Shown piece by piece: positions 24,001 through 30,000 of a stretch of DNA of 64,000 nt (position 1 is its first letter; every line of letters begins with the position of its first letter). The position numbers were made by a program. Source of the DNA: Lytechinus pictus (taxonomy: Eukaryota); the NCBI RefSeq assembly GCF_037042905.1, contig NC_087249.1, positions 12,772,001 through 12,836,000 on the forward strand. The letters are read 5' to 3'.

Positions 24001-27000
24001 GATAATGAGCCTGCTCCCATTTCCTCCCTATTTCTGTTTTTTTTTTGTTCACATACTTCCCTCCCCTCTCTCTCCCTTTGTTTGTCCCTTTTTTCTCCCT
24101 CTTCTTCGCTTTCTTTGTCTCCACTCTTCTCCATTTTCTCACATCTTTATCTTTCATTCTCTCCTCCTCTCGTCTTCCCGGCTTCCTTTCAGATTTCTCT
24201 TTCTTCATCTCCCCTCCTCCACTTTTTCTCTCATCGTTGTCTTTCCTCCCCCTCTTTCTCTCCTTTCTACCCCTTCTCTCATATCTTAATACATATATTT
24301 CTGCTTTCTTTCTTTCCTTTTCTGTCTGTCTTTCTTTCTTTCTTTCTTTCATCTTCCCCTTGTTTATCATATTGCTAATATAGTACAATCGTTATTTCCA
24401 TTATCCATCCAATCACTAATATAGGGCAATGAATAAAAACATGTATTCGAAATATATTATGTTTTTATAAAGTTTAATTCATCTCTTCTAGAAACCAGCC
24501 GTACCTGACGGAAAATCACATTATCATAATAGTTACATCATAATTATCATAGATTCAGTCATTCAGATACAATATAAACCTTTTTAATTCAAAATCAAAT
24601 TGAATCGATCAAACTGAATTTTATACGTTTTCACTAAAATCATTAATTTCAAAATTAGTGATTGTTTTCGGCCAGCCGTCTCAGACGGATTTTTTTCCTA
24701 GAACATTGAAACATGCAAAACATTCAAAATTAATAAAATGGCAGAACATTCTTCTAACTTTGAGTTAAAATATTAAATAACATGTAACATTTTCTACTTA
24801 CATTTCGTACATTTTCACTAAAATCATTCCAAAACTTTTTTCAAGGTGATTATTTTCAACCAGCCGTTCCAGACGGAATTTTTACATTAATATCACATAC
24901 AAAACAATCGCAATTATTCACAGAACGGATTTTTAAAATATAATAACAGTTAAAAAGCTACTCGTATTAAACATGTAAAATATCGAAACAAAATAATTGT
25001 CGTTATTTGGCATTATGTTAAGAGCAAGATTCTGAATAAAAACACGAGTTTTAAAAATTCAAACAAATGTATTACAACTACAAGCATTGATTTTATTCCC
25101 TACTATGTTTTACAAGCATACCATTCATTGTCATGTAGATAATCACATGATAACCAAAATATATTCTATTCCACAATAATATTATGGCATTGTTGATGAG
25201 TATGGCAAAATTCAAGTTTCTCGATATCTTATAAAGCTTGTCAATACACAGATACAAGAGAAAAAATGCAACAAATAAATTATCAGCATAAACGAAGACT
25301 CAGCTGCCTCTTCAAGTTATCAAAAAACAAAGAAAAAAAGCGATATCAGGACACATTTTCGTTTCATTGGCAAAATAAAAATAGAAACTGAACTGTCGAG
25401 ATGGTTATGTAGCATGGACATAAATACTTTTCATTGAATATATTACCATATATTCAAGCAATTGAGACGAGATTTTACAAATCTATTACACGATAGTCTG
25501 CTCTGAAGCCGCTACTAGTAACAGACCCATCCGTCTTCAGGGTTAGTTCCATCCTGTTACCGATTGACACCAAAGAAGCGGCTGGATACTCAGAACCACA
25601 CATCCTGGAGGAGAAGAAAATAAGAAAAAGCAAACACATTAGCATTTATGGATTGAAGGTATATGAATATTATCAAATATGACTACTATTTTCGAATACG
25701 ATAAAGTTCAATCGCAGTAATATATTAAGACGAAACATTATATTAAATGTGTTGTACACCAACAATTAAAAGAGATTAATCACAAAAGTTATCTATCGTC
25801 TCCCTTTTGATCACTATCACGAGATTTGATTATTATATCACTTAAGTTTAATAATGAAGAATAGTAAGCAGCACATGATATGTCCTGTTAAGCCCTTAAT
25901 GTAATAAAGTCAGATTTTTCTCTCAATTTTGATTTTGATTTGATTTCTTTTTATCTTTAAGTTAAATGAATTTCATTATGTGTGACCAATTACTCAAAAG
26001 ACATTCACTCTTCGAAAAACGTTTGCGAGTGAAGTCACAACTTTTATCACTATCCCACTTTTTGGAAAAACCTGCTTCAACACATTTATGTCGATCTTCA
26101 GAAATCTTCTTATTTGCTTTTTAACTCTCCATTCGTCTTGGGCACCCTCGTGGTTTAGCAGTTTGGCGGGATTATCAAATTCATTTTAGCTTTGAAACTA
26201 CGTTCTAAATGTTATGCAAGTTTCATATTTGTGGATTGCTCGATGATAAAGTAGTGGGCAAACTTACTTCATTGGAACTTTGACACCATCTCCGAGATCG
26301 ATCTCCAGTGCGTCCCATCGGCAGGTACTCTGATCCTCCAGCGAGAAGTCTGCGAATGTCAGCTCAACCCGACGATCAGCCTCCACTTCGATCACGTAGA
26401 CACATCGTAGGTTATTATCGTAATCATTAGGATAGTTTGGTGATGCTAATGAACCTTGGTTGTCATCAAAGCTTCCTCCACATGTTCCGACTACAGGAGG
26501 ATTAGTAGTTGTTTCAGTGGTGGTAGTTGGTGCCTCAGTCGTAGAGACACCCTGGATGACGTAAGTAGCTTTGAAACCACGCCCAGTGATGCTGTAATCA
26601 GATGTGAAAGAAACCAACATCTGGTTGCTACTAGAGATCTGGACAGGGGGTAAGGTGCTACCACAGAACTTCTCTCCGATGGCGTTGATATCGTCTTTGC
26701 GGACCTCGACGGAGTCGTAGCGACAGAGGTTCTCGTTTTCGATGTCCATGTCGACGAATGTCAGTTCAATCGTACTTCCTGCAACTCCCTGTTTAAATTA
26801 TAAGTTAAAAGAAAGAAAATGGTAATAAAATTGCATCGTTAGCATTTTTTAATAATATTTTTTTCTACCATAATATATATTTCTTCTTTAGAATGATCAA
26901 TAATTTCCTTTATGGTGATTCGTAAGGTTTGTCATTATTTGGAAAACATCTTTTACAGTATGAATCATTATAGAAGTAGAATCATAGGCGACGGAAGCCG

Positions 27001-30000
27001 GGGGGGGGGGGCGACGTGTCCCCCCTAAATTTTAGGTAGGGGGGGGGCGATCCCCCCTAAATTTTTTGTTGGTAACTTTTTTTTTTTTTTGCTTGTAATT
27101 TTTTTTCCTGCGTCCCCTTATAATTTGTGGTTGATAACCTTTTTTTTTTGCTTGTCAAAAAATTGTGTGGTGGTCCCCCCTAAAACTTTTGGCTTCCGCC
27201 GCCAATGAGTATAATGCCACATTGTCTTTATTGATTTCAATCTAAATTAAATCATTATGAGGATATAAAGTCTCACCTCAATAAGGTACATGCATTCCTG
27301 GTCGTTGTCATAGTTACTGGGGTAGTTTGGTGACGTAATCTCTCCCTGTGTGTCCGTCAATCTTTGGTAACATGGTGGTGTAGTGGTAGGTCCACTTCCG
27401 TCCTGACACAAGTCACCGCTGTAACCTGGAGGACATACACAGATACAGTTAGTATCATGGTATCCTCCGTTCTGACATTGCTCAGAGCCCGAACATTCAT
27501 TGTCGCACTCGTAGATGAGGTTGGCTAGGGTGATGTCGGCGTTACTAAGACCAGCTCGGTTACCAAGGAGATGCATCTGAAGAGGATCGATGGTTGTGAT
27601 GGTTGGTTGACCATTGCTTGAGAATCCCTTCAGGAGAAAGAAAATGAAATCAAAATGTTATCAATGTGATCAAGATTAATCACAAAATTTAAAAACCTCT
27701 GATATAATCAAGGATTTATACATGTAATATAAGCGCTAATATTCCAATAAGGGCCGGTGAGAATGTCTCCTCATGGTTGAAAAAAAAATGGTACAACGCC
27801 AACGATAATCGTTTTGAATTTTTTAACAAATTGATTTTAGCTAAGTTTATCTGTATTTTCTTAAATGAAATTGTACATATTTCACTTAAAACGTTCACAT
27901 TTGTTTAGCGGAAGGGCCAAAAGTGATATAATGCTTAATAATGATATAATGTTTTCTTACATGTGATCCGTAGTGCATGACGGAGCCGACGTCGTACTCG
28001 ACGTTGCGTGTCGTCACATAATTCCAGTCATACTTTTCGAAGTTGTCTTCCAAGCCAGATTGGATGTTTTCAAAGTGGACATTGATGTAATCGTCTCTGT
28101 CTGGTCGAGATTGTTCGTGATGGAACCCGATGGCGTGTCCGATCTCGTGAGCGACAATACCAAGCTGTTAATAGAAAGAACAAGTGAAGCTTTCACTTAG
28201 AGACGTTGCGACAAAAACATTGATTAACAGACTTTAAACAATGAAAACTTGCCTTTTGTTTGACTCGAGGGTCCCGTGTTTGAAAGATTTTACCTGAACA
28301 AAATTGACTTCTCTCCACCCAATACTAATCTGTTTCTTTATATCTCCATTCGCAATCGGTTTTCCCGTTTGAGTTTTCGCAACACTACGTAGACGATTTG
28401 TGGAACTTTAGAATCTATTGTCAACAGCCCTTCATGACAAAGCAGCTAGCCTTTGTCGAAAATCGGTGAATAAAATCAGCAGTGTCGTCTTGGACTGTGG
28501 ACCAACAACAAATTTTGCCCTTATTCGTCACCTCTAAATCTTAAGACAATCGACTGCCCCGAATCGACAGTTTTCGACAATGACCTCTAATCTGTTCGCT
28601 GTAATTTTGACGGGCATTTTCAATAGATTCTCAACGTTCCAGAAAGTGTCTGCGTAGTAGTCGCGAAAGATCGCGAGTGTGCCATATCGACCATTATCAT
28701 CAAATGATTGATATGTTAGAAAATCATCTAAAATGAGAAGGAAAAGATGTAGGAATAAAAGGTAAACTTACGTATTCACATCCTGATCCGATGGATATCT
28801 GTTGTTCGCCATTAAAGACCCTTCCGACAAAGGACCAGCAACCACCACCCTTGATGAATGAAAGATAAGTGTTATGGCCTAGGTCACTGGCATGTGAGGA
28901 AGTTCGTGGTTCGAATCTCAAACATGTATGCTGTTCCCAGTGGTCCATGGCTGCACGAATCACCTGGCTATCACCACCTAGTGAATCAAGGGGAAAAAAA
29001 AATATATATATATATGGCAATTTCATAATGATATACCATCAAAGTAATTTGAAGAGTGATTTGAAGTTAATTGAACACCCTTCTTGCCCTTTTGAACAGT
29101 AATCAAAATTCCTTCATCAAACTGATTATTTGATGGTATATTTCTTTTGTAATCTGAAAGTACTTCATTCTATTCAAGTTCTATGCATGATTTTTGCTCA
29201 GTAGACCTATCAATTAATCTATTTGAAGCTGGTTGAGGTATGATAGAAACATAAGATTGACAATTCTTACTTGAAGATGGCGAGATTTCATAAGGAACGA
29301 TGTTTAAGGTCCAACGAGCATTCTCATTGATGACAGCTTTTCTCTTCTTACGACCAGCCTTCTGATCATCGATGGCCTCTTCGATTTGTCTCAGTTGATC
29401 TACTGTTAACATCATATCTCCTTGAAAGGCTCCAGGAGTCGGATCCTCATCGATGGGTTCATCAAAAAGGTGTTGTGCGACACCGTCTAGTGGTTTCTTG
29501 AGTGGAGGTGCCTCCTGTTGTTTAAAAAAGTAACGAAGAGTTAGAATCCTGGTAATTCTAACCAATAAATGCTGCAGTGTTTATTAACATGTCTCTAAAT
29601 ATTTGAAAATGTAAATACTTATGTGTCGTGAAAAGAGACAAAGTGTCTTGAGCAATATTGGGAAGAACGTGGAGAAAATCAGAAAATCATTGCCTTTGTT
29701 TCCTAAAGCAAAACATAGCGGTACAAACAAAAAATAAGGAAAAATATTGACTGCATGTCTTTACAGGCTTTGCAGGCTTATTAAACTTAAAATTATATAT
29801 ATTTAGAATAATTATTTAGAAATATTTCTTACCGTTGGTATCTCTTTCTCTTCCTTGGCATTCCTAGTCATTCTGTTCAGAAGGTTATCAGTGAGTGGCA
29901 ACCCAAGAAGTCCTGGGATTAGTAGGGCTATGAACGATAGTACGAGTGCAGTTTTCATGATGGCTGGTTGTTCTCTATCAGGTGTTCTTCAGACTTCTTT

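What the first reader, a model, noticed from the sequence alone, without database searches (positions are those of the whole stretch)
26268..29470. Exon-confined homogenisation between inverted paralogs A and C
Seen: exons 2(3' part)-6 of A and C (53580-56238) are nearly identical even at synonymous sites (exon 5: 8 differences in 351 nt). Intron 2 aligns only loosely, other introns mostly near splice sites, and exon 1 and the UTRs are very different. Inference: an old duplication with recurrent gene conversion limited to exons, either because only exons retain enough homology or through a cDNA template. The inverted orientation, ~24 kb apart, would allow intrachromatid pairing.
Basis: partly seen in the sequence, partly recalled or inferred. 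Interest (0 to 1): 0.65.

Follow-up and report, generated by a model that had tools for sequence, protein, structure and literature searches.

The report
Exon-limited gene conversion between urchin protease paralogs
Two inverted copies of a sea-urchin blastula protease gene have kept five exons almost identical while their introns drifted apart or became unrelated; this is a clean example of a known process, gene conversion confined to exons.

Summary
The window matches Lytechinus pictus, not human. It holds three seven-exon astacin/EGF/CUB protease genes of the SpAN/BP10 family: A (minus strand), B and C (plus strand).

- **Exons.** From the middle of exon 2 to the end of exon 6, A and C differ at 46 of 1472 nt. 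Four-fold sites differ at 15 of 205.
- **Introns.** Introns 2 and 4 and the 3' part of intron 5 are homologous at only 71-78%. Introns 1, 3 and 6 and the 5' half of intron 5 show no significant homology.
- **Boundaries.** Identity steps down within -18 to +33 alignment columns of all 9 splice junctions.
- **Unconverted parts.** Exon 1 is 9/29 aa identical. Exon 7 has A-C dS of 0.77.
- **Chimera.** A has its own N-terminus on a C-type body.

Best reading: an old duplication overlaid by at least two layers of interlocus gene conversion. The older layer included introns. The latest is confined to exons because only exons kept enough homology. A spliced (cDNA) template for the latest layer is not excluded. 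No intron was lost and exon 7 is not homogenised, which counts against it.

Verdict: a new member of a known kind, of moderate interest.

The parts
25475..29958 (-). Gene A (coding part), a seven-exon astacin/EGF/CUB/Thr-rich/CUB protease. It equals the database protein P0002, 'blastula protease 10-like [Lytechinus pictus]'. Exons: 1 29958-29833, 2 29514-29271, 3 28977-28772, 4 28164-27961, 5 27627-27277, 6 26788-26268, 7 25604-25475.
   Evidence: All 7 exon translations are substrings of P0002. Introns are GT-AG. Pfam finds Astacin, EGF_2 and CUB.
52579..56846 (+). Gene C (coding part), an intact seven-exon paralog. Exons: 1 52579-52665, 2 53533-53770, 3 54056-54261, 4 54488-54691, 5 55069-55419, 6 55718-56238, 7 56717-56846.
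   Evidence: Frames are open, with an ATG start and GT donors. Exon 1 is 72-83% identical to P0003, P0004 and P0006.
41429..48160 (+). Gene B, the SpAN-like paralog lying between A and C. It equals P0007, 'protein SpAN-like [Lytechinus pictus]'. It serves as the outgroup: dS to A and to C is about 1.3 in exons 3-6.
26268..29460 (-). The homogenised span in A. It comprises exon 2b (29460-29271) and exons 3, 4, 5 and 6, at 96-98% identity to C. These are interrupted by introns 2-5, which are 71-78% identical or unrelated.
53581..56238 (+). The homogenised span in C, the partner of A 29460-26268.
29461..29514 (-). Exon 2a of A, coding but not homogenised. It shows 14 substitutions and a 6-nt indel (29468-29463) against C 53533-53580. 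The 5' end of the recent tract sits directly beside the indel.
25475..25604 (-). Exon 7 of A, not homogenised with C (28/126 nt differ). It is a three-way mosaic: A equals B at 8 of 9 informative sites in the first 85 nt, and C equals B at 11 of 15 after that.
   Evidence: maximum chi-square permutation p = 0.007; run of 16 identical A-B codons, p = 0.016.
56077..56101 (+). A divergent patch in exon 6 of C: 11 differences from A within 25 nt, with A equal to B at 9 of them. It reads PENYSCNLRC where A and the closest relatives read PNDYDNNLRC. It forms a 12-nt-arm near-palindrome.
28374..28668 (.). A repeat element inside intron 3 of A. It is also present in intron 6 of B (46612-47119). It explains part of the intron length difference (607 nt in A, 226 nt in C).

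Best explanation
A and C descend from an old duplication within the SpAN/BP10 astacin protease family. They have since exchanged sequence by non-reciprocal homologous recombination, that is, interlocus gene conversion. The proposed history has five steps.

1. A started as a distinct paralog, or at least has a distinct first exon.
2. An older conversion, or partial replacement, from a genomic C-type template overwrote A from exon 2 onwards and took introns with it. Its trace is the end-to-end homology of introns 2 and 4 and of the 3' part of intron 5, at 71-78% identity.
3. Introns then diverged freely by substitution, indels and a repeat insertion. Exons diverged only at silent sites.
4. Heteroduplex formation needs near-identity, so later conversion tracts could start and end only inside exons. 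This re-homogenised exon 2b to exon 6 to about 3% divergence and stopped at the first heterology: the exon edges, and a 6-nt indel inside exon 2.
5. Short patches were also exchanged with B in exon 7.

Shown by the data: the mosaic, the three divergence tiers, the sharp boundaries and the chimeric make-up of A. Inferred: the template (genomic DNA), the homology-limited mechanism, the C-to-A direction of the older layer, and any role of the inverted orientation.
For: **Step profile of identity.** Exons are 0.96-0.98 identical. Introns are 0.68-0.82 over aligned positions and 0.30-0.67 over all columns.

**Change points.** Maximum-likelihood change points lie within -18 to +33 columns of 9 of 9 junctions, and 6 of 9 lie within 10 columns.

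**Silent sites against introns.** Four-fold sites differ at 15/205 (JC 0.077). Introns 2 and 4 differ at 141/591 (JC 0.287). Fisher p = 4e-8.

**Synonymous sites are free to diverge elsewhere in the same gene.** Exon 7 has A-C dS 0.77. Exon 2 overall has dS 0.26, with 20 of its 26 differing positions in the first 54 nt.

**Older genomic-template layer.** Global alignment z-scores are 14.4 for intron 2 and 16.2 for intron 4. The 3' part of intron 5 gives a local score of 47.5 against a null maximum of 25.5. A-B and B-C introns are not alignable, with z of 0.2-3.8.

**Chimeric A.** Exon 1 is 9/29 identical to C but 18/40 to P0011. Exons 2b-6 are 94-99% identical to C and 84-94% to P0003 and P0004. 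A and C are sisters in the exon 5 tree (99/93) and the exon 6 tree (83/71).

**All introns retained.** All six introns sit at the same positions and phases in A, B and C.

**Short identity spill into otherwise unrelated introns.** At the two junctions that abut otherwise unrelated intron sequence, high identity runs about 16-18 nt into the intron. At the 3' end of intron 3 it is 17/19. At the 5' end of intron 5 it is 14/16.

**Other conversion-like patches in the cluster.** See exon 7.

**Precedent.** Passages of PMC3409193 report discordant exonic and intronic phylogenies in primate ADH1, attributed to gene conversion.
Against: **The five exon segments are unusually even in divergence.** Homogeneity chi-square gives p = 0.50. 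If each exon had an independent, exponentially distributed age, so little spread arises in only 2.9% of simulations.

**The 35 differences outside the patch are not clustered.** Permutation p is 0.24 and 0.31.

**There is no significant excess of differences near exon edges.** The rate is 3.2% at edges against 2.2% in the interior (p = 0.22 for a 35-nt edge).

**Substitution identity does not rise towards exons within the homologous introns.** It is 148/189 in the flanks and 409/560 in the interior (p = 0.18).

All four results would also fit a single episode that touched every exon at once, which a spliced template would give.

**There is no GC3 rise in the converted copies.** GC3 is 0.48 in A and in C, and 0.56 in B. 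A signature of biased gene conversion is therefore absent.

**Nothing outside this one assembly confirms the exon sequences.**
Confidence: 0.6

Rival explanations
1. The latest layer used a spliced template: a cDNA, an RNA, or an intronless retrocopy of the C-type or A-type transcript. Only exon sequence was available to copy. All exons were therefore patched in one episode and the recipient's introns stayed in place.
For: - dS is far below intron divergence. Section 10 of PMC6993855 (passages read) uses this same criterion to infer cDNA donors in fungal ribosomal-protein paralogs.
- The identity change is a step at the exon edge even where the adjoining intron is homologous.
- Divergence is even across the five exon segments (2.9% of independent-age simulations are this even). 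The differences are unclustered.
- No edge deficit of conversion was seen.
Against: - No intron has been lost in A or C. All six introns are retained at the same phases. Intron loss is the classic outcome of cDNA recombination; this expectation is recalled, not tested here.
- The 3'-most coding exon is not homogenised. This runs against the 3' bias expected for poly(A)-primed cDNA, although exon 7 may have been overwritten later by patches from B.
- The 5' end of the tract lies beside an indel inside exon 2. That is what a heterology block would give.
- The older layer clearly copied introns, so a genomic template has been used at this locus.
Confidence: 0.18
2. Assembly artefact. Short reads from one copy were mapped onto the other during polishing and overwrote exon differences.
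For: Only the exons are similar enough to cross-map, so an artefact would also be confined to exons. No independent sequence of A or C was available, because P0002 comes from the same assembly.
Against: - The exons still differ at 46 of 1472 positions, spread evenly.
- dN/dS of the remaining differences is 0.23, as for real genes.
- By inference, reads cross-map only if the copies were already very similar. Polishing could lower a small divergence but could not create the contrast with 24% intron divergence.
- Both genes lie in gap-free sequence, since the N runs are outside them.
Confidence: 0.04
3. There was no recent conversion. One duplication or one genomic conversion occurred about K = 0.29 ago. 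Exon silent sites were then held back by selection (codon usage, splicing enhancers), or the introns mutate much faster.
For: Introns 2 and 4 are homologous end to end. The genes are probably highly expressed in the blastula; expression was not seen for these copies. Passages of PMC13319035 concern span and bp10 in another species.
Against: - Silent sites in the same genes diverge freely in exon 2a and exon 7, and between A or C and B (dS about 1.3).
- The switch from 63% to 97% identity falls inside a coding exon.
- Introns 1, 3 and 6 have no homology at all.
Confidence: 0.03

Closest known systems
Interlocus (non-allelic) gene conversion with discordant exon and intron histories, for example primate class I ADH1 paralogs (PMC3409193, passages read)
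   Same: Exons of linked paralogs are more alike than their introns. Dating the duplication from silent sites therefore underestimates its age. The structure is a mosaic with several tracts.
   Different: Here the identity step coincides with 9 of 9 splice junctions. The copies are inverted. One copy is a chimera with a different first exon.
Concerted evolution of fungal ribosomal-protein paralogs, attributed to cDNA donors (PMC6993855, section 10 passages read)
   Same: dS is significantly lower than intron divergence, and only coding sequence is homogenised.
   Different: This is an animal gene with six retained introns. An older layer included introns, the last coding exon is not homogenised, and a tract end lies inside an exon.
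Long-lasting concerted evolution in the mammalian pairs BMP8A/B, DDX19A/B and TUBG1/2 (PMC2720389, passages read)
   Same: Linked old duplicates are kept alike over part of their length by gene conversion, with diverged ends.
   Different: In those pairs the tracts span introns. High intron identity was a selection criterion, and GC content is raised. Here the latest layer skips introns and GC3 is not raised.
SpAN / BP10 blastula astacin proteases of sea urchins (P0008, P0009; function from passages of PMC13319035)
   Same: The domain order is the same: signal peptide, propeptide, astacin, EGF, CUB, Thr-rich linker, CUB. B is 81-88% identical to SpAN or BP10 in exons 2b-4.
   Different: A and C belong to a separate clade with the unnamed proteins P0003-P0006. 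Their own function and expression were not examined.

Membership tests
Astacin (M12A) protease, SpAN/BP10 type | Astacin catalytic domain with the extended zinc-binding motif (HExxHxxGFxHExxRxDRD) and a Met-turn | tested here: met
   Pfam Astacin matches exons 3, 4 and 5, with E from 3.5e-17 to 8.5e-5. The translation reads [21 protein letters not shown] and SVMHYG. The motif definition itself is recalled.
Astacin (M12A) protease, SpAN/BP10 type | C-terminal EGF-like domain and two CUB domains separated by a Thr-rich linker | tested here: met
   Pfam EGF_2 and CUB match exon 5, CUB matches exon 6 in two stretches, and CUB matches exon 7. A Thr-rich stretch lies in exon 6.
Astacin (M12A) protease, SpAN/BP10 type | Orthology to SpAN/BP10 proper | tested here: not met
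   This applies to A and C. B groups with SpAN and BP10 (100/100 for exon 5, 98/96 for exon 6). A and C group apart from them, with P0003-P0006. B does meet this feature.
Interlocus gene conversion (concerted evolution) | A segment in which the paralogs are far more alike than in flanking homologous sequence, including at silent sites | tested here: met
   Four-fold sites differ at 15/205, against 141/591 for introns 2 and 4 (p = 4e-8). Exon 7 has dS 0.77 against 0.081 for exons 3-6.
Interlocus gene conversion (concerted evolution) | Different parts of the gene give different relationships (mosaic phylogeny) | tested here: met
   In exon 1, A is nearest P0011 (18/40) and C is nearest P0006 (24/29). 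In exons 2b-6, A is nearest C. Exon 7 has a breakpoint (p = 0.007). The exon 1 evidence rests on only 29-42 residues.
Interlocus gene conversion (concerted evolution) | Paralogs within the species are closer than orthologues between species; polymorphisms are shared between the copies | not testable with these tools
   No eukaryotic nucleotide collection, reads or population data were on hand. At protein level A-C is 166/173 in exon 6, against 143-147/167 to P0003 and P0004, whose species is not known.
cDNA- or RNA-templated gene conversion | Silent-site divergence below intron divergence, with tract ends at exon junctions | tested here: met
   Nine of nine change points fall within -18 to +33 columns of junctions.
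cDNA- or RNA-templated gene conversion | Intron loss in the recipient, or a bias towards the 3' end of the transcript | tested here: not met
   Six of six introns are retained in A and in C. The 3'-most coding exon is not homogenised.

The most novel reading that the evidence does not exclude
The latest homogenisation was a single event templated by a spliced transcript, or by a cDNA or retrocopy of it. It rewrote five exons of one paralog at once while leaving all of the recipient's introns in place. That would be an intron-retaining, RNA-mediated gene conversion in an animal germ line. The even, unclustered 2-4% divergence of all five exon segments and the step-like boundaries at junctions are what such an event predicts. 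The evidence does not exclude it.
Probability: 0.15. Interest if true: 0.7.

Novelty: new member of a known kind. Interest (0 to 1): 0.4.

Why it matters
Dating the A/C duplication from coding sequence would make it look recent (dS 0.08), when the copies are old. Gene trees of the urchin SpAN/BP10 family built from coding sequence will therefore be misleading for this pair.

The locus is compact and unusually clean. It has three divergence tiers, sharp junction-bound steps, an internal control (exon 2a and exon 7) and an outgroup paralog between the copies. With long reads, population data and a sister species, it could test whether exon-confined conversion in animals is limited by homology or templated by transcripts.

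Relatives of these proteases are reported to cleave Chordin and to scale BMP gradients in urchin embryos (PMC13319035, passages). Near-identical proteins under different 5' flanks may therefore matter for dosage or timing. That last point is speculation.

Tried and rejected
**Searches that gave nothing or could not be made**
- The listing of cluster members for P0002, P0007, P0003, P0011 and P0006 did not complete because the database was switched off. I did not repeat it. Whether C has its own database protein, and whether close-species orthologues sit in P0002's cluster, stayed unchecked.
- A search with A's exon 1 (42 aa, longer proteins, E up to 10) found only P0002 itself (1 protein of 54 candidates). 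No close orthologue with an A-type first exon was found.
- A search for a donor of the divergent patch in C found no other copy in the window. The 27-mer with up to 3 mismatches matched only itself. The 16-mer with up to 2 mismatches gave one chance-level extra match. None of 148 fetched proteins carries the patch motif.
- Pfam on 8 other long open frames of the window gave 0 families. Rfam at gathering thresholds gave 0 matches.
- A literature search for the L. pictus assembly and its polishing listed no paper on that assembly among the 10 shown.

**Tests meant to separate the genomic from the spliced template; none was decisive**
- Excess of differences near exon edges: p = 0.22-0.27.
- Clustering of differences: p = 0.24 and 0.31 without the patch.
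- Identity gradient in intron flanks: p = 0.18 on aligned positions, and 6e-4 only when gaps are counted.
- GC3 rise: none.

**Weaker evidence on B**
- The run of identical codons in exon 4 between B and both A and C (13 codons) was not significant (p = 0.11).

**Procedural**

**Rejected idea**
- A reciprocal crossover (inversion) as the source of A's chimerism. It would leave C with an A-type body, which C does not have.

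
Full report
**What the window is.** The window has about 36% G+C and three N runs, at 22252-22459, 37997-38173 and 62972-63112. I left them alone. It is not human. The translation of one exon is 100% identical to 'blastula protease 10-like [Lytechinus pictus]' (P0002, 593 aa). The window holds three paralogous genes for secreted astacin proteases. Their domain order is signal peptide, propeptide, astacin, EGF, CUB, Thr-rich linker, CUB (Pfam). A is on the minus strand, coding part 29958-25475. B is on the plus strand at 41429-48160 and equals P0007, 'protein SpAN-like'. 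C is on the plus strand at 52579-56846. Each gene has seven coding exons with GT-AG introns at the same positions and phases. All 7 of 7 exon translations of A are substrings of P0002, and all 7 of 7 of B are substrings of P0007. A and C are head to head, with B between them.

**How spliced models were handled.** Counts over exons are sums of per-exon counts.

Five inverted-repeat arms pair A with C at 91-98% identity.

| Segment | A-C differences |
|---|---|
| Exon 2b (A 29460-29271) | 6/190 |
| Exon 3 | 4/206 |
| Exon 4 | 8/204 |
| Exon 6 | 20/521 |

- For exons 3-6, Nei-Gojobori dS is 0.081 and dN is 0.019. Against B, dS is about 1.3.
- A sliding profile is a square wave that follows the exons.
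- Two-rate change points fitted without knowledge of the exons fall at +5, -3, +6, -18, +9, +33, +16, -10 and +6 columns from the nine junctions.
- The 5' limit lies inside coding exon 2, at A 29460 / C 53581, directly beside a 6-nt indel. The first 54 nt of exon 2 carry 14 substitutions plus that indel.
- Exon 1 is 9/29 aa identical, and is 42 aa long in A against 29 in C.

**The introns are not all alike.**
- Introns 2 and 4 are homologous from end to end. Global alignment z-scores are 14.4 and 16.2 against shuffles. Identity is only 208/267 and 242/324 at aligned positions.
- The last ~195 nt of intron 5 are homologous at 132/185 aligned positions (score 47.5, null maximum 25.5).
- Intron 1, intron 3, the 5' half of intron 5 and intron 6 give no local alignment above the shuffled range.
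- Part of A's intron 3 is a repeat that also sits in B's intron 6.
- A-B and B-C introns are not alignable.

There are therefore three tiers of A-C divergence. The first is no homology. The second is about 24-29% divergence (introns 2, 4 and 5b; exon 2a 14/48). The third is about 3% divergence (exons 2b-6).

**More than chance or selection.**
- Four-fold degenerate sites in the converted exons differ at 15/205. Aligned positions of introns 2 and 4 differ at 141/591 (Fisher p = 4e-8). Against all aligned positions of introns 2-5 (255/1106), p = 3e-8.
- Silent sites of the same genes diverge freely in exon 2a and exon 7, and the step inside exon 2 falls within coding sequence. Constraint on silent sites therefore cannot be the cause.
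- By inference, polishing cannot be the cause either. Short reads cross-map only between copies that are already nearly identical.
- The remaining differences are evenly spread and have dN/dS of 0.23.

**A is a chimera.**
- A's exon 1 carries a 12-residue insertion. Among the proteins fetched, only P0011 (from an unnamed source) shares it, at 18/40 identical. In the tblastn this match had E = 2e-8 against the window alone.
- C's exon 1 is 21/29 to 24/29 identical to P0003, P0004 and P0006.
- From exon 2b to exon 6 both A and C are of that C type. A-C identity is 94-99%, and both are 84-94% identical to P0003 and P0004.
- In per-exon trees A and C are sisters (exon 5 99/93, exon 6 83/71). P0011 groups with Diadema proteins, and B groups with SpAN and BP10.
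- The likely direction of the older layer is therefore C type into A. This rests on a short exon and on proteins of unknown species, so I hold it as moderately supported.

**Exon 7 shows that B takes part as well.** In the first 85 nt, A equals B at 8 of 9 informative sites. After that, C equals B at 11 of 15. Maximum chi-square permutation gives p = 0.007. A and B share a run of 16 identical codons among same-residue codons (p = 0.016). B and C share the residues LARY where BP10, P0003, P0005, P0006 and A have ADY-type residues. A's 3' half of exon 7 looks C-type, so A-C homogenisation may once have reached exon 7 and been overwritten later.

**Which template?** I made four tests to separate a genomic, homology-limited process from a spliced template. 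None was decisive.

| Test | Result |
|---|---|
| Evenness of divergence across the five exon segments | chi-square p = 0.50; only 2.9% of simulations with independent exponential ages per exon are this even |
| Clustering of the 35 differences outside the patch | none (p = 0.24, 0.31) |
| Excess of differences near exon edges | 10 of 35 differences within 35 nt of an edge, which is 21.8% of the sequence; p = 0.22 |
| Rise of substitution identity towards exons in the homologous introns | 148/189 in flanks against 409/560 in the interior, p = 0.18; significant only with gaps counted, p = 6e-4 |

These results lean slightly towards one synchronous episode, which a spliced template would give. 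Several points weigh against a spliced template:
- No intron has been lost.
- The last coding exon is not homogenised.
- The 5' tract end sits at an indel inside an exon.
- The older layer certainly copied introns.
- About 16-18 nt of high identity reach into two otherwise unrelated introns (17/19 and 14/16).

GC3 is not raised in A or C (0.48 and 0.48, against 0.56 in B).

**Probabilities.** I put about 0.6 on recurrent, homology-limited conversion from genomic DNA. I put about 0.18 on a spliced template for the last layer. Artefact and constraint take a few percent each. Gene conversion of some kind is about 0.9.

**Comparison with what is known.**
- Exon-intron discordance caused by conversion is described for primate ADH1 (PMC3409193, passages).
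- dS below intron divergence has been taken as evidence of cDNA donors in fungal ribosomal-protein paralogs (PMC6993855, section 10 passages).
- Mammalian long-lived concerted pairs have tracts that include introns and show raised GC (PMC2720389, passages).
- A search for sea urchin, gene conversion, paralogs and introns listed nothing on this gene family among the 15 of 30 papers shown. A search on SpAN, BP10 and astacin listed none on their concerted evolution among the 15 of 42 shown. Those listings are all I saw on that point.
- Span and Bp10 are reported to cleave Chordin in another urchin (PMC13319035, passages).
- Supplementary files were not consulted.

**What stayed unchecked.**
- Raw reads.
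- Orthologue nucleotide sequences, since no eukaryotic DNA collection was available.
- Population data.
- Cluster membership of P0002 (one search did not complete).
- The nature of the N run between A and B/C, on which the inverted orientation depends.

**Verdict.** The refinements are layered conversion, a chimeric A, an unconverted exon 7 and patches involving B. It is a clean new example of a known process.

Noticed in passing
window 56077-56101 (exon 6 of C); compare A 26429-26405: Eleven of the 20 exon 6 differences sit within 25 nt. A equals B at 9 of them, so C is the changed copy. The patch reads PENYSCNLRC (an extra cysteine) where A and the closest relatives read PNDYDNNLRC. It forms a near-perfect palindrome with 12-nt arms (DNA fold -5.2 kcal/mol, z -3.0, 4 of 200 shuffles as good). 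A and B do not fold there. This may be a template-switch mutation, a micro-conversion from a donor outside the window, or an error.
   Followed up: partly
window 25475-25604, 48031-48160 and 56717-56846 (exon 7 of A, B and C): Three-way mosaic. The 5' 85 nt are nearly identical in A and B. A short 3' stretch is shared by B and C (residues LARY). This points to small conversion patches that involve the outgroup paralog B.
   Followed up: yes
window 23224-23572: A relic downstream of gene A. An 84-nt piece of exon 6 (94% identical to A 26375-26458) is fused directly to a copy of A's region downstream of the stop codon (82% identical to A 25093-25367). In the patch region it carries the A-like sequence.
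   Followed up: partly
window 28374-28668, and 46612-47119: A repeat element of about 300 nt lies inside intron 3 of A and intron 6 of B (70-89% identical, partly in opposite orientation). It accounts for part of the intron size difference between A and C.
   Followed up: partly
window 31000-33250, 50900-51450 and 61750-62200: Families of short interspersed repeats (65-180 nt, 65-94% identical, direct and inverted copies) flank the three genes. They look like MITE- or SINE-like elements. They are not part of the A/C homology.
   Followed up: no
window 37997-38173: An N run lies between gene A and genes B and C. If it is a scaffold join, the relative orientation of A and C rests on the scaffolding and not on continuous sequence.
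   Followed up: no
window 5757-6092, 9118-9585, 13418-13732 and 18336-19104: Tandem arrays upstream of the gene cluster, with periods of 29, 250, 154 and 344 nt (93-98% matches). No function was looked for.
   Followed up: no
proteins P0003, P0004 and P0005 (unnamed sources): Three closely related C-type proteins have identical N-terminal parts but differ in short patches. Another urchin may therefore also carry several C-type copies that exchange sequence. Their species is unknown and was not sought.
   Followed up: no
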